Under the pieces are notes generated by a model. The model searched no databases, was not told where the DNA came from, and saw only the letters and a program-made list of their open reading frames with translations. 64,000 nucleotides of DNA, from assembly GCA_905236715.1 (NCBI GenBank), contig CAJOMQ010000004.1:5939-69938 (forward strand). Direction: 5' to 3'. Origin of the DNA: an uncultured Bacilli bacterium. GTDB lineage: Bacteria; Bacillota_I; Bacilli_A; RFN20; CAG-826. Position 1 is the stretch's first letter; every line of letters begins with the position of its first letter. A program made the translations under genes and the position numbers. Below are positions 1 to 60,762 of the stretch, one piece after another.

Positions 1-3000
1 AGCAAATGTAACCTTTCCATTTGTGCATGTATAGATATGTTCAATCCATGACAATAAGGATTCAAAGACATCAATAAATGAGAAATAGTTATAGAAAGTA
101 ATACAATAATACCAAATCGCAATATTATTCGTTAATGAACACCATTTCTCGATGGATGTTTTGGCATCACTGTTGACGGAATCGTAAATCGAATAAGCTT
201 CACGAGAATTACTAAGTGGGGCAATAACCACACCAACGTGTTCATTTAAAGTGATATTGCTTGGTGCTTTGAATAAATAGAAATAACCAAGAATATATAA
301 AGTAAATTCACGATTATTAACGCCATTTTGGGAATCGAGTTCCACAATCTTTTCCGCGACTTTATTTAAGAAATTAATAGCAGAACCCGCTCCATTATCA
401 GCATAAGTTGATCTAGCACTTTGACAAGCGGAACAAGAACATCCATTAAAATCAGTATCTTGTAATGAGAAAGTTAATTTCGTGTCATTTGGTTTATTAA
501 TCAAAGCATTACGCATATTAATAGCGGTTTGCTCCACCATTAAATTAAATTCACTACTATTACCATGCGCGGTATAACAAACGTCAACCGTGCCATCAGT
601 ACGGTACCAATTAGGATGTGATGATTGATATTGGTCTAAAGGTAACCACCAAATGGAATTGTGGAAGGTGACAACATTGCCATTACCATCAACTGGTCCA
701 TTAGTGAATTCATGAACAGTAGCAACACCATTAAAACCAAAGGTGTTGTAATTATAATCCGCACAATAATTGGGGCGATTTCTCGATTGGAAAGCCACAT
801 TAAATTCAAAATCAATATTTGGTAAGGTAGTTGGCATAGAACCATAATATGTTAAATTGTCATTTAATGCGGTCATACCAATCACTTGATTTAAGAATTC
901 AATCGCCGTGGCTAAATAGTCTTTAGAATCTTTGCACATCAAGATGATGGAATTATCCACTTTGACAAAGCGTGAATCATTCGTGGATAAAGATAATTGA
1001 TTTTCGATGTCTTTATTGCCCACAACGATTAAGTTTTTATCGGATGAATAATCAACTTTACCGACTTTATGAATAATCGTGCCACCAGTGTAATCACGAT
1101 AAAATTCAGGAGCATTACTATCTTTCTTCGTATATGTCACGCTTGTGCTTGTGGCTTTATATAAATGTTCGACGATTAAAGAAGCTGCTTTCACTGATTC
1201 AATATCATCTTTGTCACAAACAACAAGGTAGTCATTGGGGAAATTATGAGTAGATAGGCTATTAGGAGTTTCGGTAGTAATTAATGTCTCACCGAAATAT
1301 AAACCAGAAGAATCTCTATGGAAATAATCCCAAGATAAGATATCAGTTTGACATTCTCTTAATAATTCACCATGATATCCATTAGCGATATCATATGAAA
1401 GTGAGCTAGATGTGAGCATGGAAATACTTGATTCTCTCCTATCACACTTTCTAAAAAGTGGGAAATTAGCGTCTGGTAATAAGCAATAAACACCTTGATA
1501 AGCATACATCTCTTCAAATTGATTGCCTAAAAGGTGGAGAATACTTTCACTTCCTTTGGTTACTCTACTACCATCAACAAGACAATTTCTCACCGTCGCC
1601 ATGCCATTAAGTCTGGAACTTTGGCCATTATTAAATGCGCCGAAATAGGCTGTAGTAACATTGGAGGGAGAATATTTCACATAAATGTTTTCGCAAAGTC
1701 CTTCACCCCATCCGACAATAGTCGTGGTCCATAATGCAGTGATATTGACAAAGGCAGTATTTTTCAAAACGCCTGTTTTTGTTAATCGAGAAATAAAACC
1801 AGTAACACGGTCTGTTGATTCATTCCAACCAGGAACGAGAATGTTGATGTTGTTGATAGAATGACCACGGCCATCAAAAACACCTCTAAAGCCATATGCG
1901 GATTGGCCTGTTCCAACAGGAATATTGTGCATGAGAATGGGATAATCGCTATTGTTGAAATCAACATCATTTCCAAGAATGAAGTGACCATCATAAATGT
2001 TGTCATCAAGAGTGCCATTAACTGCGTCCGCTAAAGTGAGGAAACCACGGACATCATCAGGTGTTTTTAAAATCTTTGTGCATAATGTAACAGGAATGGG
2101 TGCCACAAAGACATCTTTATCCTTTCTGTAATTGATATAGATATTACCACCATCACCAAATACACCGCCAAATGCCGATGTATTAATAGTTCTAGTATTT
2201 CCTAAATAAGTTTCATTCCAATAGATTGATTCAATATCAATTTCAACAGGAATATCAAATGTATATGTTGATTCGCTTAAATCAATGTCAATCGGACTTT
2301 GATCGATACTTGCGGTATTATCGTTGTATTTTTTGATGAAATAATCAGAGGCATAAAGAGTTGTTGGCACCGGCCATGCTCCCGAAACAATGGAATCCGC
2401 CATGAAGCTTTCGGTTCCATTTAATTGATTAGAATTTAAGGTAGCGAATTGATTACCGCTGCAGGAAACTGTGCCATTAGGTGAAAATTCAAGATCAATA
2501 TAGTTGGTTAATATGGTACCTTTACCCACATTTCCATAAGTTGGGCCAGATGCACCATTAACAGGTGTCAGCATTCTCTTATTGTCACTATCGGCTTCGT
2601 TTCTGCCATTAGCGGAGAAACGCATATATAGTTTGCTATATTGTGTGAAATCAACTTTTGGTGTCACGAATCTCAAATATCCACCGACACCGATGAATTG
2701 CACAGCGGCTTTCGCATCTAATGCGCGATATTCACTAGCGCTATCAAACACCCAAGAATTAGTTGTGTCATAAACAGAACTAGTCCACTTTGCTTTGGTG
2801 GCAGCAAGCGTTTCTTCTAGATATTGTTGATTCCAAGCACCAACAGTCTCATATGAATATGTCTTGATGTAATGAGCACCACAAACGGTACAAGTTAAAA
2901 CATCAAGACCATCATTACCACCACTAGGAGGGTATGAATTTTCTTCATCGACGATGAAATTATGTTCTTGGACATTGGTCTTACTGGAACAATTGTTTTC

Positions 3001-6800: not shown

Positions 6801-6801
6801 A

Positions 6802-31216: not shown

Positions 31217-31217
31217 T

Positions 31218-37869: not shown

Positions 37870-37915
37870 ACTGCAAGTATTATACGACAGCAATTCATAT
37901 TCGCGAAGTAATTCC

Positions 37916-39287: not shown

Positions 39288-39330
39288 ATTCTATGTGAAA
39301 CATTTTGGGCTTAGAAAGCGAAATAAGGCA

Positions 39331-39364
39331 TAAAAAAAGAGGTCAACATTTTCGGTCAACCTCT
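39331..39364 (-). terminator. Possible rho-independent terminator overlapping the FtsK-like stop codon
   Basis: The minus strand reads AGAGGT-(15 nt loop)-ACCTCT followed by TTTTTTT (A-run at 39332-39338 on the plus strand). The stem is short and the loop long, so it is at best a partial terminator. Confidence 0.4.
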
Positions 39365-40336
39365 ATTTACATCAATAACTTTCGCTATCAATTCGTTTTC
39401 AGGGTAAGCAATTTTAAGTCTAGTCCATTGAACACCATTTTTGAAAATGCACTCGCCTACGTCTAGTTCTTCGCCACCTTTTCTATCAAGTATCACAACA
39501 CTATCTCTAACACTCGCAGTCTTTAACGATAATCTATAAGGCATATTGGCTTTGATTAAACCACTAACAATATCACACGAGGGTCTTTGAGTTGCCACAA
39601 TCAAGTGTATGCCACACGCTCTACCTTTTTGTGCAAGTCTAACAATGCTTTCTTCAACCTCAAACTTGCTAGTCAACATTAAGTCAGCAAGTTCATCAAT
39701 GATGATAAAGAGTTCAGTGTATTTAAGATTAGGTTTTCTATATCTTTCCTCCATTACCTCAACTGCTCTATTCAATACCCTTATCGCCTCTTTTGTGTTG
39801 TCAACAAATGTTGTTTTCCTAACTTGCCTAAAATGGTTAAGTTCAGTGCCTTTTGGGTCAATCAATAAGAATTGTGGTATCTTAAATCTATTTTTGCCAA
39901 AGTGGGCAATAATGTTGCAAATGATATTGTTAAGCAATACCGATTTACCACTTCCTGTTGTGCCTGCGATAAGTAAGTGTGGTATCTTGTCAAAGTCTAA
40001 ATGCACTTCATTGCCAAAGTTGTCAATACCTATGGTTATATCTCTACCATTGATGTATCTCGCTAATGAGATTTTATCTTGCTTGTAGGTGGTATCTAAA
40101 ATACCAAAGTGTGCTTCTTTCGTGTCAATTAGTTTCAAGTATGCGTGATGAAACACTGCGATTTTCTCTAAAAGTGATGAGATATATCTTTTATTGTAAT
40201 CGCTAATGTATTTCAAGTTATAAAGGTATGTGTTGCCTATTGGACTTGCATACCCCCTAACATACTCAACTTCTAAACCTAACTCGCAATAGTTGGTCGC
40301 AAATAATTTGCCAAAGTAATCTACCCTGTCAATCAT
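39356..40336 (-). CDS. Soluble FtsK/SpoIIIE-family DNA-translocase ATPase (motor domain only)
   Basis: 326 aa. Walker A LLIAGTTGSGKS, Walker B LFIIIDELADLM, and GIHLIVATQRPSCDIVSGLIKANMPYRLSLKTAS, typical of the FtsK beta domain. The N-terminal ~120 aa look like the FtsK alpha domain. There are no TM segments and no gamma domain. Confidence 0.8.
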   Translation of the reverse strand: MIDRVDYFGKLFATNYCELGLEVEYVRGYASPIGNTYLYNLKYISDYNKRYISSLLEKIAVFHHAYLKLIDTKEAHFGILDTTYKQDKISLARYINGRDITIGIDNFGNEVHLDFDKIPHLLIAGTTGSGKSVLLNNIICNIIAHFGKNRFKIPQFLLIDPKGTELNHFRQVRKTTFVDNTKEAIRVLNRAVEVMEERYRKPNLKYTELFIIIDELADLMLTSKFEVEESIVRLAQKGRACGIHLIVATQRPSCDIVSGLIKANMPYRLSLKTASVRDSVVILDRKGGEELDVGECIFKNGVQWTRLKIAYPENELIAKVIDVNRG

Positions 40337-40542: not shown

Positions 40543-41379
40543 CTAGTAGCAGATTATCTCGTCTTCAACTACTTTAATGACTTCTTGTGGCAAGTCATCA
40601 ATTCTAAAGATATACACTTTATTCAATCTTGGATTAAATATTCCTATTTTTGTTATTTCTTTATAAATTGGTTGTCTGGAGTGTTGCCCCATAATCCAAT
40701 ACATTAAAAGTTGAAGAGTGTGTTTATTGGTTGGCTCAGAAACAGTTACTTTAAAATCCCATAATGTATCAGCTGTAAGAAAATCACCATCGCCAGTATC
40801 AACCGTTCCAGTGTAGCCACCCCATGTTCCTTTGCCGGTTTCAACCATTTTCCTATAATCGGATTCTTTGCCATTTACTGGTTCAAAAGTAAATCCATCT
40901 TGTACAATAGGACCATATTTCTTGATAAAAGCCAGGCTTCTTTGAACCATTGTTTTGATGTTATCTACAGTCTCCTTATCAGGATTCGTTTCTTTATATG
41001 TTTTAGCCATCATTGCAGCTGGGGTGTTTCTAAACCACACATCAAAAGTAACCAATTTACAGGCACTTATAATAGATTTATCATCCAATCCTTTAATATC
41101 GCTCAATAGCTTAACGGCAACAGTGAAGGCGTCTTTAAAACCTAATTCGCCAGCTAGTTTTGCTCCTCTAAGAGATATTCCAAAGGCATCCTCCGGTTCT
41201 GCACCATTTATCAATCTAGTTAAATAGTCTACAGCCATGCCGACAATAGAGGCATGTACATTCTCTTCTTGATTTAAAACCACACCATCGTTTTGCTGTT
41301 CAACCATCATATCGGATGGTTTAATAAAGCCACCACGTGGTTGCTTAATTTGATTAATTCTTGCTGTTACACTAGGCAT
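40543..41379 (-). CDS. Hypothetical PD-(D/E)xK-type nuclease
   Basis: 278 aa. Candidate catalytic core GDGDFLTADTLWDFKVT (D ... D-x-K). Its AGGAG RBS lies inside the last codons of hsdR, and the start is 2 nt after the hsdR stop. Confidence 0.5.
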   Translation of the reverse strand: MPSVTARINQIKQPRGGFIKPSDMMVEQQNDGVVLNQEENVHASIVGMAVDYLTRLINGAEPEDAFGISLRGAKLAGELGFKDAFTVAVKLLSDIKGLDDKSIISACKLVTFDVWFRNTPAAMMAKTYKETNPDKETVDNIKTMVQRSLAFIKKYGPIVQDGFTFEPVNGKESDYRKMVETGKGTWGGYTGTVDTGDGDFLTADTLWDFKVTVSEPTNKHTLQLLMYWIMGQHSRQPIYKEITKIGIFNPRLNKVYIFRIDDLPQEVIKVVEDEIICY

Positions 41380-41381
41380 AA

Positions 41382-44300
41382 TTATTCTCCTTCTATACTA
41401 TCTATAGTTTCTTCTTTGCCAGAAGATAATGTTCTATAAAGCTCTTTAGCCATTACATTCATAACTACTTTTTGGAACTCTCCATCATTGAGCAATCTAT
41501 TGAACGCTTCATCATTTTTCATAAAGCACTCAACCAACACTCTTTGGAATTCTGTTGGGAAGATGGATTTAATAAACATATTAATGTCATTGGTTTTGGC
41601 ATATTCTTTAAGTCTTGCCTTAACAACACTATCTTCGAGAAGCATCTTTGCAACACTTTCAATAGCAGCACTATCAGCGCTACCGACAGCAGAGCCAAAT
41701 TGTTCATTGATCTTTTCAATAATTCTTTGAAGCGTATTTAGTTTCTTAATTCTGGCACGTGGCTCTGCGCCTTTAGCGGGTTTAAAGCCTCCAGAATTAT
41801 CTTCTAATTCAATAGCGCCGTGGAATGTTTCTTTTAAATGAGCATATTCAAGAGAAATTTTATCGTCTAATTTAATCTTTGAACTTTCGGTTTTCGGAAG
41901 TAAGTGGACTAAATGAGCAACAAACAAATAGTCTTTAAACAAATCTTTATCAGAAATTCTCACTAATTGGGTAACAAATGCATAGCATCTTGTGAATTTC
42001 ATCATTGTATCTCTAGCAAGATAACGATGTTCTTCGTCAAGTTCCATATATCTATCCACCACAGGCTTCAAGATACTGGCAACTTTGCCAATGGCTGTAG
42101 AATCTTGTTTCTTTTTAGCGCCTTGGCTTGTCATAATTTCAATAAAGGCATCCACTTCTGCAGATGTAAATAAGCTTAATGCGGCCACTTTTCTTCTTAG
42201 GTCGTAGACACGATTAATGTCCATATCAGATTCAAGGGTGGTTTCTGTATAGAATGGTTCAAAAGATTTTTTGATTGTCTCTACTGTGTTTTCAAAATCT
42301 AAAATGAATGTATCTTCTTTATCTCTACAAACTCTATTTAAACGAGATAGTGTTTGAACCGCATTAACCCCCTTGAGCTTTTTATCAACATACATTGAAT
42401 GGAGGTATGGTTCGTCATAACCAGTTTGATATTTATTGGCAACAACTAAAATATTGAAATCATCACTATGGAAAGCTGCTCTTAATTTACGATCAGAAAC
42501 AATAAATTTGCCATCTCTGTCCCTATTCATTTTGACTTCGACATATTCATTATCATCGCCATCTAATTTAACTGTGCCAGAAAATGCAATCAAGGCATCT
42601 GTTCCTTGACATTCGGCCTTATGGTTCTTTATATATTCTTTAATTGCGAAATAGAATCTAACGGCATTTTCTCTAGAATCACAAATAACCATTGCTTTGC
42701 CGTGACCACCAATTTTTAAGTGGCCGTTGTGTAGGAAGTTATCCATGATCATTTCAACTTTTTGAGAAATAGTTAAATCATGTTCTTTATAGAATTTAAA
42801 TAAGGCACGCTTTGCACTTTGTTCAATAAGTTCCGGATTTTCTTCCGTCTTTTTAGCGATCTCAAAAGCTTGTTTGATGGTCATATAATCTTTTAAAACA
42901 TCAAGAATATATCCTTCTTCAATGGCTTGCTTCATGCTATACGTGTGGAATGGGTGCCTTGTTCCGTCATCCCATCTAGTGCCGAATGTTTGCAATGTTT
43001 TTCCAATCGGAGTTGCAGTAAATGCAAAGAATGATTGGTTGTTGTGGTGGCCTTGAGCAAGAATTTCTTGAACCAAATCATCGTTTTCATCTAGATCATT
43101 TGGATCTTCAATTCCCATCTCTTCTGCATACTTTTTCATTTCTGCGTCTAAATCAGTTAATGATTTTCTTAATGTTCTGGCAGCCTCACCACTTTGACCT
43201 TGATGTGCTTCGTCGATAATAATCGCAAAGTTTCTGCCTTTTATATCGTCGAAGTCTTTATAAGCGTGCAAGAATTTTTGAACAGTACAGATAATAATTT
43301 TCTTTTTATCATTAATGGCTTCAATTAGACCTCTGCTGCCTTTCTTTTGAGTAATGCACTCAATTAGGCCAGCCTTATGTTCAAAACTATTAATTGTGTC
43401 TTGAAGTTGACTATCAAGGACAATTCTATTTGTTACGACAATAACTGTATCAAAAACATTTTCCTCATCCTCTGTAAAAGCCGAAGCCAATCGATAAGCC
43501 ACCCAAGCAATTGAATTAGATTTGCCAGAACCAGCCGAGTGCTCAATCAAATAATTCTTACCGGCCCCGTTTTCTTTAACATCATCTAAAATTTTATGAA
43601 CAACATCATATTGATGGAATCTTGGAAAGATAATCTTTTTAATAATGGATTTTTTAATTTGCCCATTAACTTTTTCTTCTTTTTTCTCTTCCACCACTGT
43701 AATAAATCTGCGGATTAAATCCATCACAGAATCTTTTTGGAATACCCTCTGCCATAAATAAGCAGTTGGATATCCATGTGGATTTGATGGATTGCCCTTG
43801 CCACCAGCTTTGCCAGCGCCTTCACTACCTTGATTAAATGGTCTAAAGACAGTTTTTTCTCCACAAAGTTCAGTTGTCATCCAAGCTTCATATAAATCAA
43901 CAGCAAAATACGCAAAGAATCTTTGTTCAAATTTGAATATAGGTTCTTTGTAGTCTCTATCTTCTTTCCATTGTTCAATGGCGCATTCATAATCTTGACC
44001 TTTAAATTGATCTTTTAATTCAAAAGCAAAGACTGGAATACCATTAATGGAAATCACCATGTCAATTTCGTTATTGTTTTGTAATGAATAAGGAAATTGT
44101 CTAGTAATACCAATAATGTTCTTTGAATATAAATCATTAAGAAGAGCATTCATTGTTGAGTCTGGTTTGAAATAGCAGACATTTAATTTAATACCCATGT
44201 CTTCAAAACCGTTTTTAAGAACATCTAAAAGTCCTCTGGAAATAACTGAGTCGTTAAATCTTCTGATTAATTTCTTTTCAGCTTGATCGCCATAGTAACG

Positions 44301-44498
44301 TTGATATCTAGTCCATTCTCTTGCTTGTGTATTCTTGATAAATTCCACTAAAACGTTAGGGAATAGCATAGATTCTTTATCATATTCCGCTCTGTCTACT
44401 TTACGATACCCGCTACTCAGCAAATCCGCTTCGATATCAGATTCAAATTGGGTTTCAGATACATTCATAGCCATATATTCAAATTTGTCATTACTCAT
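41382..44498 (-). CDS. hsdR: Type I restriction endonuclease subunit R
   Basis: 1038 aa. N-terminal nuclease core IDMVISINGIPVFAFELKD. Helicase motifs HSAGSGKSNSIAW and IIIDEAHQGQSG, then QTLSRLNR. It sits in an operon with hsdM and hsdS. Confidence 0.9.
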   Translation of the reverse strand: MSNDKFEYMAMNVSETQFESDIEADLLSSGYRKVDRAEYDKESMLFPNVLVEFIKNTQAREWTRYQRYYGDQAEKKLIRRFNDSVISRGLLDVLKNGFEDMGIKLNVCYFKPDSTMNALLNDLYSKNIIGITRQFPYSLQNNNEIDMVISINGIPVFAFELKDQFKGQDYECAIEQWKEDRDYKEPIFKFEQRFFAYFAVDLYEAWMTTELCGEKTVFRPFNQGSEGAGKAGGKGNPSNPHGYPTAYLWQRVFQKDSVMDLIRRFITVVEEKKEEKVNGQIKKSIIKKIIFPRFHQYDVVHKILDDVKENGAGKNYLIEHSAGSGKSNSIAWVAYRLASAFTEDEENVFDTVIVVTNRIVLDSQLQDTINSFEHKAGLIECITQKKGSRGLIEAINDKKKIIICTVQKFLHAYKDFDDIKGRNFAIIIDEAHQGQSGEAARTLRKSLTDLDAEMKKYAEEMGIEDPNDLDENDDLVQEILAQGHHNNQSFFAFTATPIGKTLQTFGTRWDDGTRHPFHTYSMKQAIEEGYILDVLKDYMTIKQAFEIAKKTEENPELIEQSAKRALFKFYKEHDLTISQKVEMIMDNFLHNGHLKIGGHGKAMVICDSRENAVRFYFAIKEYIKNHKAECQGTDALIAFSGTVKLDGDDNEYVEVKMNRDRDGKFIVSDRKLRAAFHSDDFNILVVANKYQTGYDEPYLHSMYVDKKLKGVNAVQTLSRLNRVCRDKEDTFILDFENTVETIKKSFEPFYTETTLESDMDINRVYDLRRKVAALSLFTSAEVDAFIEIMTSQGAKKKQDSTAIGKVASILKPVVDRYMELDEEHRYLARDTMMKFTRCYAFVTQLVRISDKDLFKDYLFVAHLVHLLPKTESSKIKLDDKISLEYAHLKETFHGAIELEDNSGGFKPAKGAEPRARIKKLNTLQRIIEKINEQFGSAVGSADSAAIESVAKMLLEDSVVKARLKEYAKTNDINMFIKSIFPTEFQRVLVECFMKNDEAFNRLLNDGEFQKVVMNVMAKELYRTLSSGKEETIDSIEGE

Positions 44499-45528
44499 AT
44501 TTTGGTTCCTCCTTAATGAGATTATTCATTTCAGTCACTGTAATTTCATTGATTTCTCTTATTGTATTAAATAGTTTTTTGCTCACAAGCATTTGGTAAA
44601 GAAACACAACTTTAATATGGTAAAAATATTCCTGGCCGAAAGTATCTTCTACTGCCAGAAAAATATTTAAAGGTGATTTGTATTTAAACGAGAAAAAACA
44701 GCTTTTATTAGGAAGCATTATTTTATTTCCTTGAAGCTCGAACCATTTGCCATCATGAAATAGTTTCGTTAATTTTACTGATGATTTTTCGGAGTTTTCT
44801 AATTCGGCATAAACTTCTTGTTTAAATTCAAGTTCCAAATCTTCAGGAACACAAAGTTTTTTAATTGCATTACCTGCTGGTTCTTTATCTAGCATATTGA
44901 ATGTAAATAGCGGTTTTGCTTTTTTTAGTTCATCTTCTCTTCTAGCATTATCAGATTTCTTAATAGTTAGCATCACACCTAACAGTGTTAGCAATCCCCC
45001 AATTAAAGCCGCGACAATAGCAGTAACTATAGTTTGAAGACTTACATCAGGGATTTTGTATATTAAGAGAATAGATAATAAGAAGCTCAAAACAAAATCG
45101 CCAATAATTAGGAAGTTGGGGTAAGAAGATGAGTCTTTTCTTTTAATCAAAACAGACGCTATATCATAAACCATTTTAACTAAATAAAGACCAGCAAGAA
45201 TAAAGAAAGCTAATAGCCAATTCATAAACATACAAATAAACGCAAAATCGGCATACCAAATAGACAAAATAGCTACTACGATTTTGGTTGAGGCCGCTTT
45301 CTTTTGCTCTTCTGTAAAGCTGCCCTTTGATTCAGCGTTAATTTTAAAATTCACTAGTGCAACCGGACTAATAACAGCCACGCAAATAGCTATTACCCAA
45401 TAAGCTGTTAACTTATCAGGAAATATAAAATGCAATGGCAGAGTGACTCCGAGCGTAACAATTATTACCAAAAGCGTAAACAAGGAAGCGCTTGTTGCTT
45501 TAGATATTTTCTTTTTTTCTTTTTCCAT
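44491..45528 (-). CDS. Polytopic membrane protein (~6 TM) with a soluble C-terminal domain, unknown family
   Basis: 345 aa. Hydrophobic segments include LFTLLVIIVTLGVTLPLHFIF, YWVIAICVAVISPVALV, IVVAILSIWYADFAFICMF, WLLAFFILAGLYLV, FLIIGDFVLSFLLSILLIY and IVTAIVAALIGGLLTLLGVML, followed by a ~150 aa hydrophilic tail. It overlaps the hsdR start by 8 nt (ATGAGTAA). Confidence 0.7.
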   Translation of the reverse strand: MEKEKKKISKATSASLFTLLVIIVTLGVTLPLHFIFPDKLTAYWVIAICVAVISPVALVNFKINAESKGSFTEEQKKAASTKIVVAILSIWYADFAFICMFMNWLLAFFILAGLYLVKMVYDIASVLIKRKDSSSYPNFLIIGDFVLSFLLSILLIYKIPDVSLQTIVTAIVAALIGGLLTLLGVMLTIKKSDNARREDELKKAKPLFTFNMLDKEPAGNAIKKLCVPEDLELEFKQEVYAELENSEKSSVKLTKLFHDGKWFELQGNKIMLPNKSCFFSFKYKSPLNIFLAVEDTFGQEYFYHIKVVFLYQMLVSKKLFNTIREINEITVTEMNNLIKEEPKYE

Positions 45529-46098
45529 TTATTTCCGCCCTCCTTCATCAAAACCAAATGTTCTTCTGGTTCTAAAATCTGTATTTACCAAGTTGTAATT
45601 AAAGAAATTAAATTTATTCTTGTCTTCTTTATAACAAATCTCAGCTAATCGACATATTTTCCAACATAGATCTCTAACGTTTATTGTTAGTTTTTTGTTT
45701 ATTGCTTTATCGTTTCCATTTTCATCTTTGACAATTTCTACTTCAGAAGAACCAGTTATTATGCTTGAACCTTCATACTGTCTATAAAGGAGCTCAAAAT
45801 AGATTATCCCAAACTTCTTTCCATCAATATTCGGATTACCTTGATGGAGTATTGAGTTTCTCAACGAATAAACAAGTTCGCCACTTAAGTATGGCATTCC
45901 GATTCTAGCATGCTCTTCATCGTGTTCGTATTGGCCAATATATTTATCAAACCATTTGATGTATCTCTCACTTGGTTTTAAATTTGGGTAGAATGCTTTG
46001 CCACAAATATCTGGCAAAGTTAAAGCAAGTGAAAGACCAGCCATAACACAGCCACTATCTAAACATTGGTTTATTTCTTTAATCAATCTATCAACCAT
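45529..46098 (-). CDS. HEPN-like protein (R-x4-H motif)
   Basis: 189 aa starting from the ATG at 46098 (the track TTG is at 46104). The motif YSLRNSILHQG fits the HEPN R-x4-6-H signature. The start overlaps the hsdS stop (ATGGTTGA), and its TAA directly abuts the ATG of the membrane protein. Confidence 0.5.
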   Translation of the reverse strand: MVDRLIKEINQCLDSGCVMAGLSLALTLPDICGKAFYPNLKPSERYIKWFDKYIGQYEHDEEHARIGMPYLSGELVYSLRNSILHQGNPNIDGKKFGIIYFELLYRQYEGSSIITGSSEVEIVKDENGNDKAINKKLTINVRDLCWKICRLAEICYKEDKNKFNFFNYNLVNTDFRTRRTFGFDEGGRK

Positions 46099-47350
46099 TA
46101 GCAACTTCCTTTTTTCCTGTTACATATTCATAGATAAGCGATTTTTTATACTCATTTAAACCATCAATCTTCTTTTGTTTCAATGAAATTAATGAATCTA
46201 TCTCTGAGCACTTTTTATCTAAATACAAAACAATTTGTTCGGTCTCACAATCTGGCATAACCAAAAAAGATAAATTGCGGAATTTTTCTTTAGTAAAATG
46301 TGCTATTGTGGCTCCATTACAACTAACCTCAAAATAGCCGCTATACTTTGTGAACATTAAATAATATCTCAAAAAATGAAGATTGCCTTGTTTCGATCTT
46401 ACTCTGTGAAGTGCATTTTGTATGAAAACTTTTTCTCCGTCGAGATTATAGAATGCGGAACTCGCGACATCTCCACCCTCAACTACAAGCAAATCACCTT
46501 TTTTTACTTCGTACAGCATTTTTTCCTTTTCAGAAAACCACATTTTTTTTAAATCATCTACCTTTAAATTATTCCCGCCAACATTTGCGGCACATAGATA
46601 ATTTTCAAGAGTTTCATCATCGTTAATTTTGTTTGGTTGTAACATTTTGCCGAGTACAACATCATAGAAAAACATTACTTTTGAAACTTTCCACTTTTCT
46701 GGTATTTTCCCTATCCACTCAACGCCGCTATCCTTCATGGACACGCTTTTGTTAAGTCCTTTTGTTACAGCTTCTGTTATAACTGTATATTCCTTTAATT
46801 TGTCTATTTGCTTGTTTTGGTTATCAATCAGCATCTCAATTTCATCGTTTTTTGTGTTTAAATACCTTGAAATTTTTATTTGAACATCGACTGGTGGCAG
46901 AGGAAGCATTATACTTTTCATTTCTTGCCATCTGGTTGTCCACAAATCAGCAACTATACCATGTCCCCATCTATAAAACTCCTCCGCAAATCCATAATTT
47001 TTCAAGAGATAGTTCATGTAATCGTTATAAATCGCATCCACTGTTTTTGGGTATAAAATCATATTAATCAAAGAAACGGACCCATCTAAAGCGGAAACTC
47101 CGCATGACATTTTTCTGTCTGATCTCGAATTTATAGCAAAGTCACCAGCTTTAACAAGCTTTCTATCATCACTGGCATCGCTTTTGGCAACAGAATTCAT
47201 TTGAGGAATAACGCCACCTTTTGTCACTGAAAGTGGCGCATAAACAGTGTCACTAACTTTTTCATTGCGCAAGTTAAAAAGCTGTCCAATTTTATTGAGT
47301 TTCCAATTATTAGGAATATTGCCTATCCATTCAATTCCACTATATTTCAT
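46091..47350 (-). CDS. hsdS: Type I R-M specificity subunit (second copy)
   Basis: 419 aa with two target-recognition halves. The central and C-terminal conserved helices are KLKEYTVITEAVTKGL and LNEYKKSLIYEYVTGKKEV. RBS GAGGAGG. Confidence 0.85.
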   Translation of the reverse strand: MKYSGIEWIGNIPNNWKLNKIGQLFNLRNEKVSDTVYAPLSVTKGGVIPQMNSVAKSDASDDRKLVKAGDFAINSRSDRKMSCGVSALDGSVSLINMILYPKTVDAIYNDYMNYLLKNYGFAEEFYRWGHGIVADLWTTRWQEMKSIMLPLPPVDVQIKISRYLNTKNDEIEMLIDNQNKQIDKLKEYTVITEAVTKGLNKSVSMKDSGVEWIGKIPEKWKVSKVMFFYDVVLGKMLQPNKINDDETLENYLCAANVGGNNLKVDDLKKMWFSEKEKMLYEVKKGDLLVVEGGDVASSAFYNLDGEKVFIQNALHRVRSKQGNLHFLRYYLMFTKYSGYFEVSCNGATIAHFTKEKFRNLSFLVMPDCETEQIVLYLDKKCSEIDSLISLKQKKIDGLNEYKKSLIYEYVTGKKEVANG

Positions 47351-48590
47351 AGGCGACCTCCTCTTTGCCAGTTACATATTCATAAATAAGAGCTGTTTTA
47401 TATTCTTCTAATTTGTGTATCTTTTCCTTTTTAACAAGTATTAACTTATCCACCAAGTCACATTTGTTATTTATATACTCAACAATATTTTTTTGTTCAT
47501 CCATTGGTGGAACAACTATAGGAAGAGATGATAATTTATTCCATCTTAAATCACAGGTTCTAACTCGAATACCTGTAGATAAAGCAACAAAAATGTCGCG
47601 ATATGCCAAGGAACGCAAATAATACATCAGATATCGCTTATCATATATTGTATCTAAAACAATTAGAACGGGGCTTCCCTTTCCTCTCGAGTCTGAAATT
47701 CCGATTGCGCCAGCAAAGCCATCCATTCCGTGAACAACCAAATCACCAGGCTCTATTCCTTGGTAACCAATTTCTTTTTCTGAAAATGTAAATCCTTCTT
47801 CTCTTCGGTTAGACCTTAAAGTAACTTGTCCATCACGGAAACAAGTAACTACTTTATCATTTGCCTCAACATTTCTGTCCAAAAGTTTGAAAACGTATTT
47901 TCCATTCATTAAAACCCAATGAGCAGGAATTTCTCCTATCCACTCAATATTAGAATTCTTTTTTATGCAGTTTTTATCAAGACCATTAATAACAACGTCA
48001 TTGATGATAGCTTTCTTATAGCTAAAGAGTTTTGACAGTTGGTTGTTTTCAGATTCAATAATTGCCTCTATTTGTTTGATTTTTTTATCAAGATATATTC
48101 CGATAGCTATTTGCTCGCTTAAAAGCGGAACAGGGGTTCTAATAGACATAAACATGTCGCTTCCTATTGTGAATCTAATATTTTTGGAATACATTTTGTA
48201 ATATCTATTCGAAAAAACATACTGAAACCAAAAATCAATGAATCTCTTATTGACAAATTTATTGTTTGGCTCAACCACATCATACGCAGAAGTAATCATG
48301 CCACTTGTTTTTGATAAACCAGAAAACACCGCAGAAACATCTAGATCAAAAAGACAAAACACCATATCACCTGGTTTGACGGTTTGATAATTTTCATAAT
48401 TATCTGGTACTTTCCCACCGCTTGCATTGAAATCTTTTTCTTTTACTCCATTAGTAGTTAATGACAAAAGTTGATATTTTTGCCAGTTACTACCAACTTT
48501 TGAAGAACAGTACGAAAACAAATACTTATTAGGTACTTCTCTCCATGTGTCTGGAATTTCTGTGCAAAAAGGGATGTTTGTCTTTTTCAC
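47340..48590 (-). CDS. hsdS: Type I R-M specificity subunit (first copy)
   Basis: 416 aa. Conserved blocks PVPLLSEQIAIGIYLDKKIKQIE, IVVPPMDEQKNIVEYINNKCDLVD and LEEYKTALIYEYVTGKEEV. GTG start 3 nt after the hsdM stop, with a GGAG RBS. Confidence 0.85.
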   Translation of the reverse strand: MKKTNIPFCTEIPDTWREVPNKYLFSYCSSKVGSNWQKYQLLSLTTNGVKEKDFNASGGKVPDNYENYQTVKPGDMVFCLFDLDVSAVFSGLSKTSGMITSAYDVVEPNNKFVNKRFIDFWFQYVFSNRYYKMYSKNIRFTIGSDMFMSIRTPVPLLSEQIAIGIYLDKKIKQIEAIIESENNQLSKLFSYKKAIINDVVINGLDKNCIKKNSNIEWIGEIPAHWVLMNGKYVFKLLDRNVEANDKVVTCFRDGQVTLRSNRREEGFTFSEKEIGYQGIEPGDLVVHGMDGFAGAIGISDSRGKGSPVLIVLDTIYDKRYLMYYLRSLAYRDIFVALSTGIRVRTCDLRWNKLSSLPIVVPPMDEQKNIVEYINNKCDLVDKLILVKKEKIHKLEEYKTALIYEYVTGKEEVAYEI

Positions 48591-48593: not shown

Positions 48594-50441
48594 CTATTCT
48601 CCTAGGATCTTTTTCATTAGTTCTTGTTCTTCTTCAGAAAGCTTTTTGAATTCTTCAAAAATTTCTTCGCTCTTTCTTGGTTCTACAAATTTATAGAAAA
48701 TGCGAGTGAAAGGAATTTCATAACCAATCTTGTTATGTTTTTCATCATAAACTGTCCCATCAGCATATGTGACGTTGCCATCTTTATCATGGTAATAGAA
48801 AGCGTGTTGATTAAATGGCAAAACGTTCTTTTGGATATATTCTTCAACATCATCAGTTAAAGGAATAATCTCACTGTCGGTTTTTCCTTTTTCGGGAACT
48901 TTGTTTCCTTTTTTCGTGATTTCCTTACCATTTGCATCTAATTCAGCAGTCTCAACTGTTAATTTGAGATAGCCAAAATAATTGTTGTCAAAGACTTTGG
49001 ATTCAACAGAAACAGAGATTCCATCTTCATTAACGTCAGTGTATTCTTTATCGGCCTCAAATTCGTTATATGCTTTCATGATTAATTCAACGCATTTATC
49101 AGAAAGATCAACTCTTTTTGAGCCAATATTTTTTCTTCTCTTTTTAAAGCATTTGGAAGCATCAATTAATTGAACCTTACCCAATCTATTCTCGGGTTTG
49201 TTCTTAGTAACAACCCAAATGTATGTGGCAATGCCTGTGTTGTAGAATAAATCATTAGGTAATTGAATGATTGCTTCAAGATAATCACTTTCGATGATAT
49301 ATCTTCTAATGTTGGATGGACCACTACCGGCATCACCATTAAATAGGGATGATCCGTTTTGAATAATAGCCATTCTTCCGGTATCTTTTAATTTCTTTAC
49401 ACCATTAAGCATAAAGAGCATTTGTCCATCACCAATAGCGGGTAATCCGGGTCCAAATCTACCTTCATAGCCAGATTTAGCTTCCTTTTCAACTGCTTCT
49501 TTTTCCTTCTTCCAGTCGATACCAAAAGGAGGATTAGAAATAATGTAGTCAAACGTATAGCCCTCAAATTGGTCATTGCTTAATGTATCACCAAATTTCA
49601 TATTTTCAGCATCTTTGCCTTTAATGAGCATATCAGCTTTGGCTATAGCAAATGTCTCTGGGTTAAATTCTTGTCCAAAACATTTAAGCTCAATGTTTTT
49701 GTTACTAACATTTAGATCGATGAGTTTTTCATCCAAGCAAGCAAGCATTTGAGATGTACCCATCGTCATGTCATAGGCTGTTTTATTGCAGCCATTATTG
49801 ATAATATTTTCTTTATCAGGAGCGACTAAAAGTTCGGTCATTAAATAGATAATATCTCTTGCAGTAAAGTGAGCCCCTGCTTGTTCATCATATGATTCAG
49901 AGAATTTTCTAACCAATTCTTCAAAAATATAACCCATATCAACCGAAGTAACCTTTTCAGGCGACATATCAGCTTTTTTAGAATTGAATTCTTGAATGAT
50001 GGTAAACAACAAATCGTTTTGAGACATTTTGGAAATCTCTTTATCGAATTCAAAATAGGCAATAATGTCCTTAACGTTATCGGAGAAACCTTGTAAATAA
50101 TCGGTAAAGTTTGCTGAAATATCATCAGGTTGGTCTAAAAGTTTTTCAAAATCAAATTTACTAACATTATAGAAATCTCTGCCAGCGGTTTTCTTTAAAA
50201 CACCATCGCGAGCCATGCCGGTAAGTCCCTTTTCATCGAGTTCTTTGACCTTTGCCAAAACGGCGGCCTTTGTGTTTTTAAGACTATCGTCAAATCTCTT
50301 AATTACCGTCATTGGCAAAATCACACGACCATATTCATGTGGCTTATATTCGCCATAAAGATGTGTAGCAATTTCCCAAATAAGATTTGCTTTTTCTTGA
50401 ACGTTCACGTTCGTTTGCTTTTGAATTTTGTTGGTTTCCAT
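48594..50441 (-). CDS. hsdM: Type I R-M N6-adenine DNA methyltransferase subunit M
   Basis: The HsdM N-terminal block is ANLIWEIATHLYGEYKPHEYGRVILPMTVIKRFD. The catalytic motif IV is IISNPPFGIDW. The ATG at 50441 has a GGAGAG RBS (the track TTG is at 50456). Confidence 0.9.
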   Translation of the reverse strand: METNKIQKQTNVNVQEKANLIWEIATHLYGEYKPHEYGRVILPMTVIKRFDDSLKNTKAAVLAKVKELDEKGLTGMARDGVLKKTAGRDFYNVSKFDFEKLLDQPDDISANFTDYLQGFSDNVKDIIAYFEFDKEISKMSQNDLLFTIIQEFNSKKADMSPEKVTSVDMGYIFEELVRKFSESYDEQAGAHFTARDIIYLMTELLVAPDKENIINNGCNKTAYDMTMGTSQMLACLDEKLIDLNVSNKNIELKCFGQEFNPETFAIAKADMLIKGKDAENMKFGDTLSNDQFEGYTFDYIISNPPFGIDWKKEKEAVEKEAKSGYEGRFGPGLPAIGDGQMLFMLNGVKKLKDTGRMAIIQNGSSLFNGDAGSGPSNIRRYIIESDYLEAIIQLPNDLFYNTGIATYIWVVTKNKPENRLGKVQLIDASKCFKKRRKNIGSKRVDLSDKCVELIMKAYNEFEADKEYTDVNEDGISVSVESKVFDNNYFGYLKLTVETAELDANGKEITKKGNKVPEKGKTDSEIIPLTDDVEEYIQKNVLPFNQHAFYYHDKDGNVTYADGTVYDEKHNKIGYEIPFTRIFYKFVEPRKSEEIFEEFKKLSEEEQELMKKILGE

Positions 50442-50458
50442 ATTAATTCTCTCCAATT

Positions 50459-52123
50459 CTATTTAATATTTCTGTTAACATAGTTAACCATTTCTTTTTC
50501 CATAATATCAAGTTCTCTTTTAGCGGACTCGTACTTGCTATTCATTATTTTGTAATGATTGGCAATTTCACGTTGTTTGTCTAATGGTGGAAGATCAAGT
50601 TTTATCTTAAGCAAGTTTTCAAACGATATTGTCACAATCGTTGAGCCTTTTTGAATATAAGATAGTGTCTTTCTTCCTTTGTTAGAACTTAGATATATTT
50701 TTAAGAATGTTCCATCAAGCTTATCTTTGTGAGGTCTGATAATAATCATTCCTCCAGTGACCACTATTTTCTTTTGTGGTTCGCTGTCGATAACTGCAAC
50801 TTTCACTCTTGTTGATTTAGACGTTATTACCACATCATCTTTTTGAAGAGTGAACTTGTCGTATTTTTTGTCGCCTCCGATATAAGCCAATTTAGCAAAA
50901 TTAATGAAGCCATTTTCGCCTATATCACTAGAAGTAAGGATTTGATATTCGCTCTCGCCTTCGTATAGTTCATCTTTGAAATTAGCAAGCGTCATATTAC
51001 TTCCTCTGATTACATCGGCAACCATATCAAGTTCAGGGAGACCTTTGTTGTCTTTTTCGTTATTGATAGATGACAAAGCCAGGTTGTAATGAATGCTTTC
51101 GACATTATTAATTGAATACTTGCGAACATCTTTGACATTATAGGCAATATATAAATCATTTGATGCTTCATCGGAGTTTAATCCTTTTCCTGGTAGATCG
51201 TTCAAAACTGATTCTCCGTCAACATATTTGAATGACTCATTGTTTTCCGAAAGAATAACAATCGAGAATTTTGTTGGGCTTTGAATAAAAGCGTTAGCAG
51301 GAAGAGAAATAATTCCTTCAATTAATTTATTTTCTAATAAGTATTTTCTAATAGATGTATCTGACGCTTTAAAAAGAACAGATTCAGGTAATAACGCCAG
51401 TATCTTACCTTTTTCTTTCATTCCTTCCATAGCTTTCAAAACAAAAAGCCATTCAGAAGAAGTTCTACTGTTAATTAAATCCTTATATTTATTTAAATTG
51501 GCATTTTGACCTTTGATTTTTAAACCAATAGGAGGAAATACATATCCTTTATCAAAAGAATTAAATTTAGAATCTGCATTAGCAGCTAAAATATCTTGGT
51601 TAAGAATCGTGTATTTTGAACCGCACATTTCTAAAACCATTCTAGAAAGATACACATCCTCAGTATTAATTTCGGTTCCTCTTAATTCATGTCTAATCAA
51701 TGAATCATCTAATGCGCAAGCGATGTATGCCAAAAACGCACCAGTGCCTGATCCAAAGTCGAAAACAATATCGGTATTATTAATTTCAAGTAGTTCCGCA
51801 ACAAGTTCCGAGAGATAAAAATTAGAGTTTTTGAAATGGCCATCGCCAAAGAAATGTTGGGTAGCGAAATCGAGAGCGTTAACTTTGAACGACTCAGCAT
51901 TATATTTTTTTGTTTTGTCTTTAATTTGTTTTGTAACAATGTCTCCGAGCCCATTATTACTAATTTTGTTTAGTGCGTATTTGTATAAGTCTTTATTCGG
52001 TTTACCAATAGTATCGCAATAAGAAATATATAGCGAACTAATTGCAACAGCTTTATCGCTCATTGTTAACGCGTATGCACCGATTTCTTCAAATAGCTTA
52101 GGTTTAATCTTCAATCCACTCAT
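50459..52123 (-). CDS. HsdM-like methyltransferase fold fused to a single HsdS-type TRD, with a degenerate catalytic motif IV
   Basis: 554 aa. The SAM motif is VFDFGSGTGAF. The position aligned with NPPFG reads GYVFPPIGLK. The post-motif region ILALLPESVLFKASDTSIRKYLLENKLIEGIISLPANAF is HsdM-like. The C-terminal half ends LDLPPLDKQREIANHYKIMNSKYE, the conserved HsdS helix. Confidence 0.7.
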   Translation of the reverse strand: MSGLKIKPKLFEEIGAYALTMSDKAVAISSLYISYCDTIGKPNKDLYKYALNKISNNGLGDIVTKQIKDKTKKYNAESFKVNALDFATQHFFGDGHFKNSNFYLSELVAELLEINNTDIVFDFGSGTGAFLAYIACALDDSLIRHELRGTEINTEDVYLSRMVLEMCGSKYTILNQDILAANADSKFNSFDKGYVFPPIGLKIKGQNANLNKYKDLINSRTSSEWLFVLKAMEGMKEKGKILALLPESVLFKASDTSIRKYLLENKLIEGIISLPANAFIQSPTKFSIVILSENNESFKYVDGESVLNDLPGKGLNSDEASNDLYIAYNVKDVRKYSINNVESIHYNLALSSINNEKDNKGLPELDMVADVIRGSNMTLANFKDELYEGESEYQILTSSDIGENGFINFAKLAYIGGDKKYDKFTLQKDDVVITSKSTRVKVAVIDSEPQKKIVVTGGMIIIRPHKDKLDGTFLKIYLSSNKGRKTLSYIQKGSTIVTISFENLLKIKLDLPPLDKQREIANHYKIMNSKYESAKRELDIMEKEMVNYVNRNIK

Positions 52124-60059: not shown

Positions 60060-60762
60060 GATATATGTACCTTCTGTCGATATTTTTTGCTAAATATGAA
60101 TAAAATTGATCGTAAATCTTCTTTCTTTTAGCGATATGATAAATTTTCTTTAGATTAATATTGTATGTTTTAAATATCTCATTAAGCATACTTATAAGTT
60201 CATTATCGCTATACAATGATTTAGCAATTTTGTTTGAATATAGTTCCACTATTAGTCTTTCAATAGAAATGTGGTGATCTTTTTCTATCAAAGATTTAAC
60301 TAATGGTTTAATAACAATTGTGTGTCTACCAAAATATTTGTAAAATTCAGTGACACTTGGATTAACTAACACATAGCTATATCCAGCATTTTTTAAATCT
60401 TCAGCGGCGAATTGCATTAAATCTTTATCAACCTCAACAAATGTGATGACATTATTAAGGAGATGATTCATCCATTTGTTAATGATATTAGTGTCCCACA
60501 ATGTATAATCGCTATAACCTTTGATGGTCGATTCTATATTGTCATCAGAAAGAAAATAAGAAAAAGAGACACTTATCTTTGTTGAATATGTATACGAATC
60601 TAGTTTAGTCAATATTCCTTGTTTCATTAATTCAGAAATTATTCGATAAAAATATGATCTGCTAATTCCGCCATAACATTTGTCAATCAAGTTAAGTAGT
60701 TCAGTCCTAGAAACGATTTCCTTGTTTTTGATTGCGTCAATTAATTCTTTTTTAATATCCAT
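60052..60762 (-). CDS. AbiEi-family antitoxin / transcriptional regulator
   Basis: 236 aa. The N-terminal wHTH-like block is IVSRTELLNLIDKCYGGISRSYFYRIISELMKQGILTKL. It lies immediately upstream of, and overlaps, the AbiEii gene. Confidence 0.7.
   Translation of the reverse strand: MDIKKELIDAIKNKEIVSRTELLNLIDKCYGGISRSYFYRIISELMKQGILTKLDSYTYSTKISVSFSYFLSDDNIESTIKGYSDYTLWDTNIINKWMNHLLNNVITFVEVDKDLMQFAAEDLKNAGYSYVLVNPSVTEFYKYFGRHTIVIKPLVKSLIEKDHHISIERLIVELYSNKIAKSLYSDNELISMLNEIFKTYNINLKKIYHIAKRKKIYDQFYSYLAKNIDRRYIYHD

What the first reader, a model, noticed from the sequence alone, without database searches (positions are those of the whole stretch)
44491..46098. HEPN-like protein plus 6-TM protein wedged between hsdS and hsdR: PrrC-style embedded module with a membrane partner
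Two extra genes sit inside the type I operon and are coupled at every junction. The hsdS stop overlaps the HEPN start (ATGGTTGA). The HEPN TAA directly abuts the ATG of the membrane protein. The membrane protein's stop overlaps the hsdR start (ATGAGTAA).

The 189 aa protein has SLRNSILHQG, an R-x4-H signature in the R-N-x-x-x-H form seen in Abi_2/AbiD-type HEPN proteins. The 345 aa protein has ~6 TM helices and a ~150 aa soluble tail with no motif I recognise.

As precedent, the HEPN anticodon nuclease PrrC lies between hsdS and hsdR of EcoprrI and is kept latent by the R-M complex, and Campylobacter type I loci carry embedded rlo genes. Here the PrrC ATPase part is absent and a polytopic membrane protein is present instead. 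This suggests a distinct back-up (abortive-infection-like) module triggered when the R-M system is inhibited.
Basis: partly seen in the sequence, partly recalled or inferred. Interest (0 to 1): 0.75.

Follow-up and report, generated by a model that had tools for sequence, protein, structure and literature searches.

The report
Two accessory genes inside restriction operon
A type I restriction-modification operon carries two extra uncharacterised genes, a small enzyme-like protein with a strictly conserved Arg-x4-His motif and a six-helix membrane protein; each also occurs alone inside many other restriction operons, so they look like separable candidate back-up phage-defence cassettes rather than one fixed pair.

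Summary
On the minus strand, a 189-aa gene (geneA, 45529-46098) and a 345-aa gene (geneB, 44491-45528) sit between hsdS and hsdR. All three junctions overlap or abut.

geneA belongs to a large unannotated family (2,529 clusters at 50% identity). D30, C32, W49, R80 and H85 are nearly invariant. The R-x4-H motif lies at the end of a helix, as in HEPN domains. No profile or fold search confirms a HEPN fold.

geneB has six transmembrane helices and a cytoplasmic beta-sandwich tail. The tail differs between relatives that share the membrane domain.

The two genes are not an obligate pair:
- geneB follows geneA in 3 of 80 geneA loci.
- geneA precedes geneB in 4 of 80 geneB loci. In 41 of the 80, geneB directly follows hsdS without geneA.
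- At least 12 geneB copies follow a type III res, or a type I hsdR-like gene, in other arrangements.
- geneA also occurs in prophages and defence islands without any R-M genes.
- In geneA's closest clade it is nearly always followed by a membrane protein, either geneB or an unrelated small 4-TM protein.

Best reading: these are separable accessory cassettes of the "defence genes embedded in R-M operons" kind. PrrC-style latency is possible but untested.

The parts
50459..52123 (-). First gene of the operon: 554-aa fusion of an N6-adenine methyltransferase domain with a single S-type target-recognition domain
   Evidence: Pfam N6_Mtase 9e-23 plus Methylase_S 6e-11. There is a 2-nt gap to the hsdM start. 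The same gene sits upstream of hsdM in related loci (L001, L003, L095, L163, L164).
48594..50456 (-). hsdM (620 aa)
   Evidence: Pfam HsdM_N 2e-24 and N6_Mtase 2e-58.
47340..48590 (-). hsdS-1 (416 aa)
   Evidence: Pfam Methylase_S. It is 29% identical over its full length to hsdS-2.
46091..47350 (-). hsdS-2 (419 aa); its stop overlaps the geneA start
   Evidence: Pfam Methylase_S. Junction ATGGTTGA.
45529..46098 (-). geneA: 189-aa soluble protein of an unannotated family; candidate HEPN-like enzyme (LPDxCGK ... LR[N/C]SxLHxG)
   Evidence: No Pfam, NCBIfam or PADLOC hit. It matches phrog_18591 (unknown function) at 2e-26. The family has 2,529 50%-cluster representatives. D30, C32, W49, R80 and H85 are nearly invariant. 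AF2 model pLDDT 87.
44491..45528 (-). geneB: 345-aa protein with six transmembrane helices and a cytoplasmic C-terminal beta-sandwich that varies between relatives; its stop overlaps the hsdR start
   Evidence: No family hit. 89 homologue clusters. Conserved TM domain with swapped C-terminal domains. AF2 pLDDT 83. Foldseek found nothing significant.
41382..44498 (-). hsdR (1038 aa)
   Evidence: Pfam HSDR_N, ResIII, SWI2_SNF2 and T1R_D3-like; TIGR00348 at 1.5e-61.
40543..41379 (-). 278-aa PADLOC candidate defence gene PDC-S61, 2 nt after the hsdR stop (probably the same transcript)
   Evidence: PADLOC PDLC05052 at 5e-108. The same gene follows hsdR in L164.

Best explanation
The operon is MS-fusion, hsdM, hsdS, hsdS, geneA, geneB, hsdR, PDC-S61. 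It is a type I R-M system that has picked up two separable accessory cassettes at its hsdS|hsdR junction. Both are co-transcribed with the R-M genes and probably translationally coupled to them.

Shown:
- Each family on its own is strongly, but not exclusively, linked to ATP-dependent R-M operons.
- Cassette content is mosaic relative to the HsdR backbone.

Inferred, geneA: it is a self-contained enzyme built around an active site of D30, C32, R80 and H85. It is most likely a metal-independent HEPN-like RNase that acts as a stand-alone abortive-infection or growth-arrest effector, comparable to small single-protein HEPN defences such as AbiV or ApeA.

Inferred, geneB: it is a membrane protein whose variable cytoplasmic beta-sandwich senses or binds a partner and whose conserved 6-TM domain is the output (membrane perturbation or localisation). 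It works beside the R subunit of type I or type III enzymes.

Inferred, both together: in this window they add second-line layers to the R-M system. In geneA's nearest clade a membrane partner (geneB or a small 4-TM protein) probably cooperates with it.
For: Coupling and real genes.

geneA family:
- 568 clusters at 90% identity and 2,529 at 50% identity.
- Invariant D30, C32, W49, R80 and H85; position 81 is N or C.
- The motif lies at the C-terminal end of helix 73-86, and D30-x3-K34 lies in an earlier helix. This matches the HEPN description in PMC3710099.
- The two HEPN entries 2hsb and AbiV 9bj7 appear, non-significantly, among the Foldseek hits. One family member weakly hits HEPN_Apea.

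geneA context:
- 55 of 80 genome loci have an R-M gene within 5 kb, and 45 of 80 have hsdM/hsdS-type genes there. The usual order is hsdS-geneA-hsdR with overlapping stops and starts.
- Other neighbours are defence genes: RhuM, ApeA, AbiEii, DUF4238, PIN, GmrSD.
- It also sits in a prophage moron position and in temperate phages.

geneB context:
- In 41 of 80 metagenome loci geneB directly follows hsdS without geneA; hsdR follows it where the contig extends that far.
- At least 12 more loci sit directly after a type III res or an hsdR-like gene.

Modularity:
- HsdR backbones 55-72% identical to the window's carry S-B, S-A-c, S-A-B or S-A, where c is the small 4-TM gene.
- In the geneA clade at or above 58% identity, geneA is followed by geneB or by an unrelated small 4-TM protein in nearly all loci.

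Precedent for defence genes embedded in R-M operons: bioRxiv 10.1101/2024.01.29.577857 and PMC11411939.
Against: - No significant sequence or fold match links geneA to any HEPN family or to any nuclease.
- The invariant Cys (C32) is not a HEPN feature.
- geneA has a near-neutral pI of 7.6, which is not typical of an RNA-binding toxin.
- No antitoxin or regulator is evident for a putative toxin.
- geneB matches no known effector.
- A defence role rests only on genomic association. Nothing here tests activity.
Confidence: 0.5

Rival explanations
1. PrrC-style guardian. geneA, geneB or both are held inactive by binding the HsdMSR complex. They are released when a phage anti-restriction protein (Ocr/ArdA/Stp-like) inhibits the enzyme, and then abort infection.
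For: The position between hsdS and hsdR is the same as for prrC. Translational coupling would favour co-assembly. geneB is almost always next to an R-subunit gene, whether type I or type III. PrrC and PARIS are precedents.
Against: geneA occurs without any R-M gene in 25 of 80 loci and in prophages, so it must be regulated autonomously there. There is no ABC ATPase or other regulatory domain. By contrast, PrrC is almost exclusively embedded in type I R-M. geneB C-terminal variant classes are shared between type I and type III neighbours, so no R-type-specific docking is apparent.
Confidence: 0.2
2. Obligate two-component module. geneA (sensor or nuclease) and a downstream membrane protein work only together, as TgvAB does or as membrane-sensor plus cytosolic-effector systems do.
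For: Close relatives keep the A-B pair. In the geneA clade at or above 58% identity, a TM protein (geneB or a small 4-TM protein) follows in nearly all embedded loci, usually with overlapping or closely spaced stop and start codons. A-B recurs in at least three geneA clades (80-92%, about 42%, and 37-40% identity), with a correspondingly diverged geneB.
Against: Most geneA genes (more than 60 of 80) have no TM neighbour, and hsdR often follows directly. Most geneB genes (about 70 of 80) have no geneA. The TM partners are non-homologous (hhalign probability 3%).
Confidence: 0.15
3. geneB is not a killer. It is an accessory of ATP-dependent restriction enzymes that tethers or regulates the R subunit at the membrane, for example at the DNA-entry site, or that controls restriction alleviation.
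For: About 60 of 80 geneB loci have the gene immediately before a type I hsdR, or immediately after a type III res or an hsdR-like gene. The soluble domain is cytoplasmic.
Against: No interaction evidence. The C-terminal domain is swapped among relatives irrespective of R type. That pattern looks more like arms-race variation against phage factors. Some copies lie near non-R-M genes such as an nSTAND NTPase.
Confidence: 0.12
4. Hitch-hiking selfish or unrelated genes. The cassettes are toxin-like addiction or mobile genes, or have a non-defence function, and simply exploit a permissive, co-transferred insertion site.
For: The junctions of these operons collect many different genes: RhuM, KAP NTPase, DUF4145, AbiJ-like, DUF4238, Fic. 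Embedding can benefit the embedded gene selfishly.
Against: Nearly all co-embedded families are known or candidate defence genes. Active-site-like residues are strictly conserved across 2,529 clusters, which argues for a selected enzymatic function.
Confidence: 0.08

Closest known systems
PrrC anticodon nuclease of EcoprrI (and RloC)
   Same: It is encoded between hsdS and hsdR of a type I operon. It is a HEPN-type R-x4-H nuclease and serves as a second-line defence (PMC3710099).
   Different: PrrC is about 400 aa with an N-terminal ABC ATPase and is almost exclusively embedded in type I R-M. geneA is 189 aa with no ATPase, shows no detectable homology, and lies outside R-M contexts in about 30% of loci. 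PrrC has no membrane partner.
Small stand-alone HEPN defence proteins (AbiV, ApeA)
   Same: AbiV is a protein of about 200 aa with a helical core, a beta hairpin and an RNxxx(x)H-type motif. These proteins are single-gene defences, some carried on prophages or in defence islands. ApeA motifs (RNSISH) resemble geneA's RNSILH.
   Different: No sequence similarity. Foldseek gives AbiV 9bj7 a TM-score of only 0.24-0.29. geneA places a three-stranded beta meander between the motif helix and the last helix, and has an invariant DxC motif. An RNA antitoxin like abiV2 was not looked for.
Defence genes embedded in R-M, BREX or Hma operons (TgvAB, Campylobacter rlo genes, HEC-01..09 and PDC families)
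   Same: Extra genes lie between core R-M genes, are co-transcribed with them, are often independently functional, and are also found elsewhere in defence islands. PDC-S61 follows hsdR in this same operon.
   Different: geneA and geneB match none of the 5,027 PADLOC v2 models. TgvAB is an obligate GmrSD-like pair, whereas A and B are separable.
Transmembrane effectors of abortive-infection systems (for example the 2TM/4TM effectors of CBASS and similar systems)
   Same: A polytopic membrane domain is joined to a cytoplasmic domain that could gate it. The gene sits next to a sensing or enzymatic defence component.
   Different: The only similarity is a sub-threshold PADLOC 2TM hit (E 0.058). 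There is no signal-binding domain such as SAVED or TIR. The specific adjacency to type I and type III R genes is not described for those effectors.

Membership tests
HEPN superfamily (RNase type) | Conserved R-x4-6-H motif | tested here: met
   R80 in 145/146 and H85 in 146/146 of 50%-cluster representatives; spacing is always 4.
HEPN superfamily (RNase type) | Polar residue (N, D or H) immediately after the Arg | tested here: inconclusive
   Position 81 is N in 59 and C in 84 of 146 members. The window protein has N.
HEPN superfamily (RNase type) | [quoted passage not shown] | tested here: met
   In the AF2 model the motif lies at the C-terminal end of helix 73-86, followed by GNP. D30-x3-K34 lies in helix 28-36 (D in 144/145, K/R in 114/146). 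The criterion is from PMC3710099. This rests on a model only.
HEPN superfamily (RNase type) | Four-helix up-and-down bundle superposable on solved HEPN domains | tested here: inconclusive
   Foldseek against the PDB gave nothing at E<=0.001. The best HEPN hit is 2hsb (E 1.5, probability 0.33, TM 0.33/0.45). AbiV 9bj7 ranks 36.
HEPN superfamily (RNase type) | Profile-level homology to an established HEPN family | tested here: not met
   No HEPN Pfam model is hit consistently by 146 members; there is one HEPN_Apea hit at 0.026. The PDB profile search returned no hits. hhalign against a 66-sequence DUF4145 alignment gave probability 0.1%. Comparison with small ApeA seeds gave nothing.
HEPN superfamily (RNase type) | Metal-independent RNA cleavage that depends on the R and H residues | not testable with these tools
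   Needs biochemistry.
PrrC/RloC anticodon nucleases | N-terminal ABC-type ATPase domain fused to the nuclease | tested here: not met
   The protein is 189 aa with no P-loop and no ATPase family hit.
PrrC/RloC anticodon nucleases | Encoded between hsdS and hsdR of a type I locus | tested here: met
PrrC/RloC anticodon nucleases | Kept latent by the R-M complex and activated by an anti-restriction factor | not testable with these tools
   Indirect evidence against this for geneA: 25 of 80 loci lack any R-M gene within 5 kb.
R-M-embedded defence candidates (guilt by embedding; PADLOC HEC/PDC) | Gene located between the core genes of an R-M, BREX or DISARM operon, with homologues also in other defence contexts | tested here: met
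   geneA. geneB.
R-M-embedded defence candidates (guilt by embedding; PADLOC HEC/PDC) | Match to an existing HEC or PDC model | tested here: not met
   There is no PADLOC v2.0.0 hit for geneA. geneB has only a sub-threshold 2TM hit at E 0.058.
Obligate two-gene system (A+B) | Consistent co-occurrence of the two families | tested here: not met
   geneB follows geneA in 3 of 80 geneA loci. geneA precedes geneB in 4 of 80 geneB loci, with one more in reversed order. The pair is kept only among close relatives and in a few clades.

The most novel reading that the evidence does not exclude
geneB defines a previously unrecognised class of membrane partner for ATP-dependent restriction enzymes, both type I HsdR and type III Res. 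It would couple restriction status or phage entry at the membrane to a membrane-level response. geneA would be a new HEPN-like enzyme family that, in one clade, has become dependent on interchangeable membrane partners (geneB or a 4-TM protein). Together they would form a new R-M-coupled enzyme-plus-membrane abortive-infection system.
Probability: 0.2. Interest if true: 0.8.

Novelty: new variant of a known kind. Interest (0 to 1): 0.55.

Why it matters
Defence genes embedded in R-M operons are a recognised and productive source of new anti-phage systems. These two families are in none of the four family libraries searched here (Pfam, NCBIfam, PADLOC, PHROGs), except that geneA matches a PHROG of unknown function.

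geneA is large enough to deserve a name and a biochemical test: thousands of sequence clusters, mostly from gut and rumen Bacillota, plus some phages. Its invariant D/C/R/H site gives clean mutants to make.

geneB is the more unusual lead. A polytopic membrane protein that tracks the motor/nuclease subunit of two different R-M types would bear on an old question: whether, and how, restriction enzymes are organised at the membrane or linked to abortive responses.

If neither gene has a phenotype, the locus is simply one more decorated type I operon.

Tried and rejected
- Pfam, NCBIfam and PADLOC gave no hit for geneA or geneB. PHROGs gave only an unknown-function family for geneA.
- PDB sequence searches with a single sequence and with two profiles found nothing relevant.
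- Foldseek against PDB and BFVD for geneA returned only two uncharacterised phage proteins. Foldseek against PDB for geneB returned only weak generic beta-sandwich or helical hits.
- Pfam on 10 longer proteins carrying the geneA domain found no informative fusion, apart from one DUF2971.
- hhalign of the geneA profile against ApeA seeds, 4 DUF4145 sequences and a 66-sequence DUF4145 alignment gave no similarity.
- The third homologue search, seeded with an ApeA HEPN domain to build a comparison profile, returned nothing and was wasted.
- A Cys3-His zinc site (C32, H85, C145, C149) was considered and rejected as a family feature. C149 is present in only 85 of 146 members and C145 in 121 of 146.
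- The small 4-TM partner was tested as a possible truncated geneB. It is not one (hhalign probability 3%).
- geneB C-terminal variants were tested for tracking the type of neighbouring R subunit. The two main variant classes each occur with both type I and type III.
- There is no compositional anomaly across the cassette and no flanking repeats suggesting a mobile cassette.
- Source names for homologues are all "hypothetical protein" or absent.
Full report
**1. Observation**

The finding's coordinates are right, and all genes lie on the minus strand. In transcription order the operon is:

| Gene | Coordinates | Note |
|---|---|---|
| M+S fusion | 50459-52123 | 554 aa, N6_Mtase plus one S-type recognition domain |
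| hsdM | 48594-50456 | |
| hsdS-1 | 47340-48590 | |
| hsdS-2 | 46091-47350 | |
| geneA | 45529-46098 | 189 aa |
| geneB | 44491-45528 | 345 aa |
| hsdR | 41382-44498 | |
| PDC-S61 | 40543-41379 | starts 2 nt after the hsdR stop |

AGGAGG ribosome-binding sites lie inside the preceding genes. GC content is uniform across the region, and no repeats flank the two genes.

**2. geneA**

*Family size and conservation.* No curated library recognises geneA apart from an unknown-function PHROG. The family is nonetheless large: 568 clusters at 90% identity and 2,529 representatives at 50% identity with E<=1e-3. Conservation across 146 representatives that are 30-52% identical to the window protein:

| Residue | Conserved in |
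|---|---|
| D30 | 144/145 |
| C32 | 145/145 |
| W49 | 145/145 |
| R80 | 145/146 |
| H85 | 146/146 |
| Position 81 | N in 59, C in 84 |

*Structure model.* The AlphaFold model is confident (pLDDT 87, pTM 0.81).
- It has a helical N-terminal part.
- R80-H85 lies at the C-terminal end of helix 73-86, followed by a GNP turn.
- A three-stranded beta meander spans residues 98-140, followed by a long helix at 141-158.

*What does not support HEPN.*
- Foldseek against the PDB gives nothing significant. The entry with the highest probability is the HEPN protein 2hsb (E 1.5, TM 0.33/0.45), and AbiV (9bj7) ranks 36.
- BFVD returns only two uncharacterised phage proteins.
- Scanning all 146 members against Pfam gives no recurrent family.
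- PDB profile searches are empty.
- hhalign against a 66-sequence DUF4145 (HEPN) alignment, built from a viral-contig scan, gives probability 0.1%.

I therefore call geneA "HEPN-like by motif and motif placement, fold unconfirmed", at roughly even odds. The invariant Cys and the near-neutral pI are not typical of HEPN.

**3. geneB**

- An alignment of 39 homologues shows a well-conserved membrane domain of about 200 aa. Invariant residues are W44, Y157, G177, G178, T181 and P206.
- The C-terminal domain of about 140 aa is replaced by unrelated sequences in close relatives. Clustering gives at least four variant classes.
- The model (pLDDT 83) has six long helices and an all-beta domain at 208-329.
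- Loop charges place both termini, and so the beta domain, in the cytoplasm.
- Foldseek finds nothing significant.

**4. Are the genes a pair?**

*From geneA's side* (80 loci from one genome per species):
- 45 loci have hsdM/hsdS-type genes, 35 have hsdR-like genes and 7 have a type ISP-like fusion enzyme within 5 kb. The union is 55 of 80.
- The typical order is hsdM-(x)-hsdS-geneA-hsdR with overlapping stops and starts.
- geneB follows geneA in only 3 loci.
- 25 loci have no R-M gene nearby. Their neighbours are other defence genes.
- geneA also sits between the integrase and the lysis genes of a Lentilactobacillus phage-plasmid, and in Erysipelothrix and Acinetobacter phages.

*From geneB's side* (80 metagenome loci):
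- In 41 loci geneB directly follows hsdS with no geneA; hsdR follows it where the contig extends that far.
- 4 loci are A-B-hsdR, and one has the order B-A.
- Of the 26 other loci, at least 12 place geneB immediately after a type III res (Mod N6_N4_Mtase plus ResIII) or an hsdR-like gene.

*Relative to the backbone.* HsdR proteins 55-72% identical to the window's are preceded by S-B, S-A-(small 4-TM), S-A-B or S-A. The cassettes are therefore gained and lost independently.

*Against a purely independent picture:*
- Close relatives keep A-B together.
- In the geneA clade at or above 58% identity, geneA is followed in nearly every embedded locus by a membrane protein. This is either geneB (two C-terminal variants) or an unrelated 139-149-aa 4-TM protein (hhalign probability 3%).
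- A-B also recurs in more distant geneA clades (L113/114, L053, L071, L076).

The pair is facultative but recurrent.

**5. Mechanism**

What is shown:
- co-transcription-compatible packing of the genes;
- strong R-M association of both families;
- separability of the two genes;
- enzyme-like conservation in geneA;
- a conserved membrane domain with a swappable cytoplasmic domain in geneB.

What is inferred:
- geneA is an autonomous, probably RNA-targeting, effector.
- geneB is a membrane module that works beside an R subunit.
- Both provide second-line defence, in the sense of the published "guilt by embedding" observations, PrrC and TgvAB.

A PrrC-style latency model is possible, more so for geneB than for geneA. 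geneA's frequent R-M-free contexts argue that it does not need an R-M complex.

**6. Comparison and novelty**

The kind, accessory defence genes embedded in R-M operons, is known. These two families match no PADLOC model, carry no source name other than "hypothetical protein", and did not come up in the paper searches run here. geneA fails the PrrC membership test because it has no ATPase. Its membership of HEPN is unproven. The association of geneB with both type I and type III R genes was not mentioned in the papers I read.

I rate this a new variant of a known kind, with moderate interest.

**7. Context**

The window is a defence island:

| Feature | Coordinates |
|---|---|
| AbiEi/AbiEii | 58995-60762 |
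| PDC-M26A | 53959-56193 |
| FtsK-like ATPase plus TM-HNH pair | 38376-40336 |
| UvrD/HRDC helicase | 34234-37893 |

Noticed in passing
window 46091-48590 (-): Two complete, divergent hsdS genes lie in tandem (29% identical over full length) and overlap by 11 nt. Relative L164 also has two, while L163 has one. There are no long inverted repeats and no recombinase in the operon, so this does not look like a shufflon.
   Followed up: partly
window 50459-52123 (-): A 554-aa fusion of an N6-adenine methyltransferase with a single S-type recognition domain sits directly upstream of hsdM, with a 2-nt gap. It has weak MAD2/MAD5 hits and recurs upstream of hsdM in related loci (L001, L003, L095, L128, L163, L164). 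It may be a second, R-independent methyltransferase in the same operon.
   Followed up: partly
window 40543-41379 (-): A 278-aa protein matches the PADLOC candidate PDC-S61 (5e-108), with a weaker hit to a DRT-associated PD-(D/E)XK model. It starts 2 nt after the hsdR stop, so the operon carries a third accessory gene. The same gene follows hsdR in L164.
   Followed up: no
window 38376-40336 (-): An FtsK/SpoIIIE-type ATPase (326 aa, with SspH- and mad8-like PADLOC hits) is followed by a 303-aa protein with N-terminal TM segments and a C-terminal HNH nuclease. A terminator-like hairpin lies at 39364-39338. This may be a separate two-gene defence module.
   Followed up: no
window 53959-56193, 58995-60762, 34234-37893: The surroundings are a defence island: PDC-M26A, an AbiEi/AbiEii pair, and a 1219-aa UvrD-type helicase with an HRDC domain (GajB-like hits). 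Several large ORFs have no family match (52314-53975, 56891-58330, 28481-32552, 26043-27932).
   Followed up: partly
L001 10573-10992, L002 3112-3549, L003 9649-10083, L167 5570-6001, L171 5567-5989: A conserved small 4-TM protein family (139-149 aa) sits between geneA and hsdR, in most cases with overlapping stop and start. It occupies the slot that geneB occupies in the window and is not homologous to geneB.
   Followed up: partly
L101, L107, L117-L120, L123, L130 (about 1484-7113): geneB homologues lie about 10 nt downstream of a type III R-M pair (567-aa N6_N4_Mtase Mod plus 870-aa ResIII Res). The membrane protein therefore tracks R subunits of two different R-M types.
   Followed up: partly
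L150-L160 (e.g. L150 5953-6504 and 6564-7193): In one group of type I operons, the geneB-like region is consistently split into two adjacent ORFs (about 183 and 209 aa) between hsdS and hsdR. This is either a conserved two-gene version or a shared frameshift.
   Followed up: no
L169 1874-2563; L171 1244-3730; L054 4066-4962; L013 10574-11488: In related operons the hsdM|hsdS and hsdS|hsdR junctions also hold DUF4145 (HEPN), RhuM plus a KAP NTPase, an AbiJ-N-terminal-domain protein, and DUF4238. These junctions are general collecting points for accessory defence genes.
   Followed up: partly
L126-L140 (e.g. L140 5683-5937): A conserved 84-89-aa ORF with no Pfam match lies immediately upstream of the 319-aa geneB variant in 8 loci that lack hsd genes. 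It may be a small partner or regulator.
   Followed up: no
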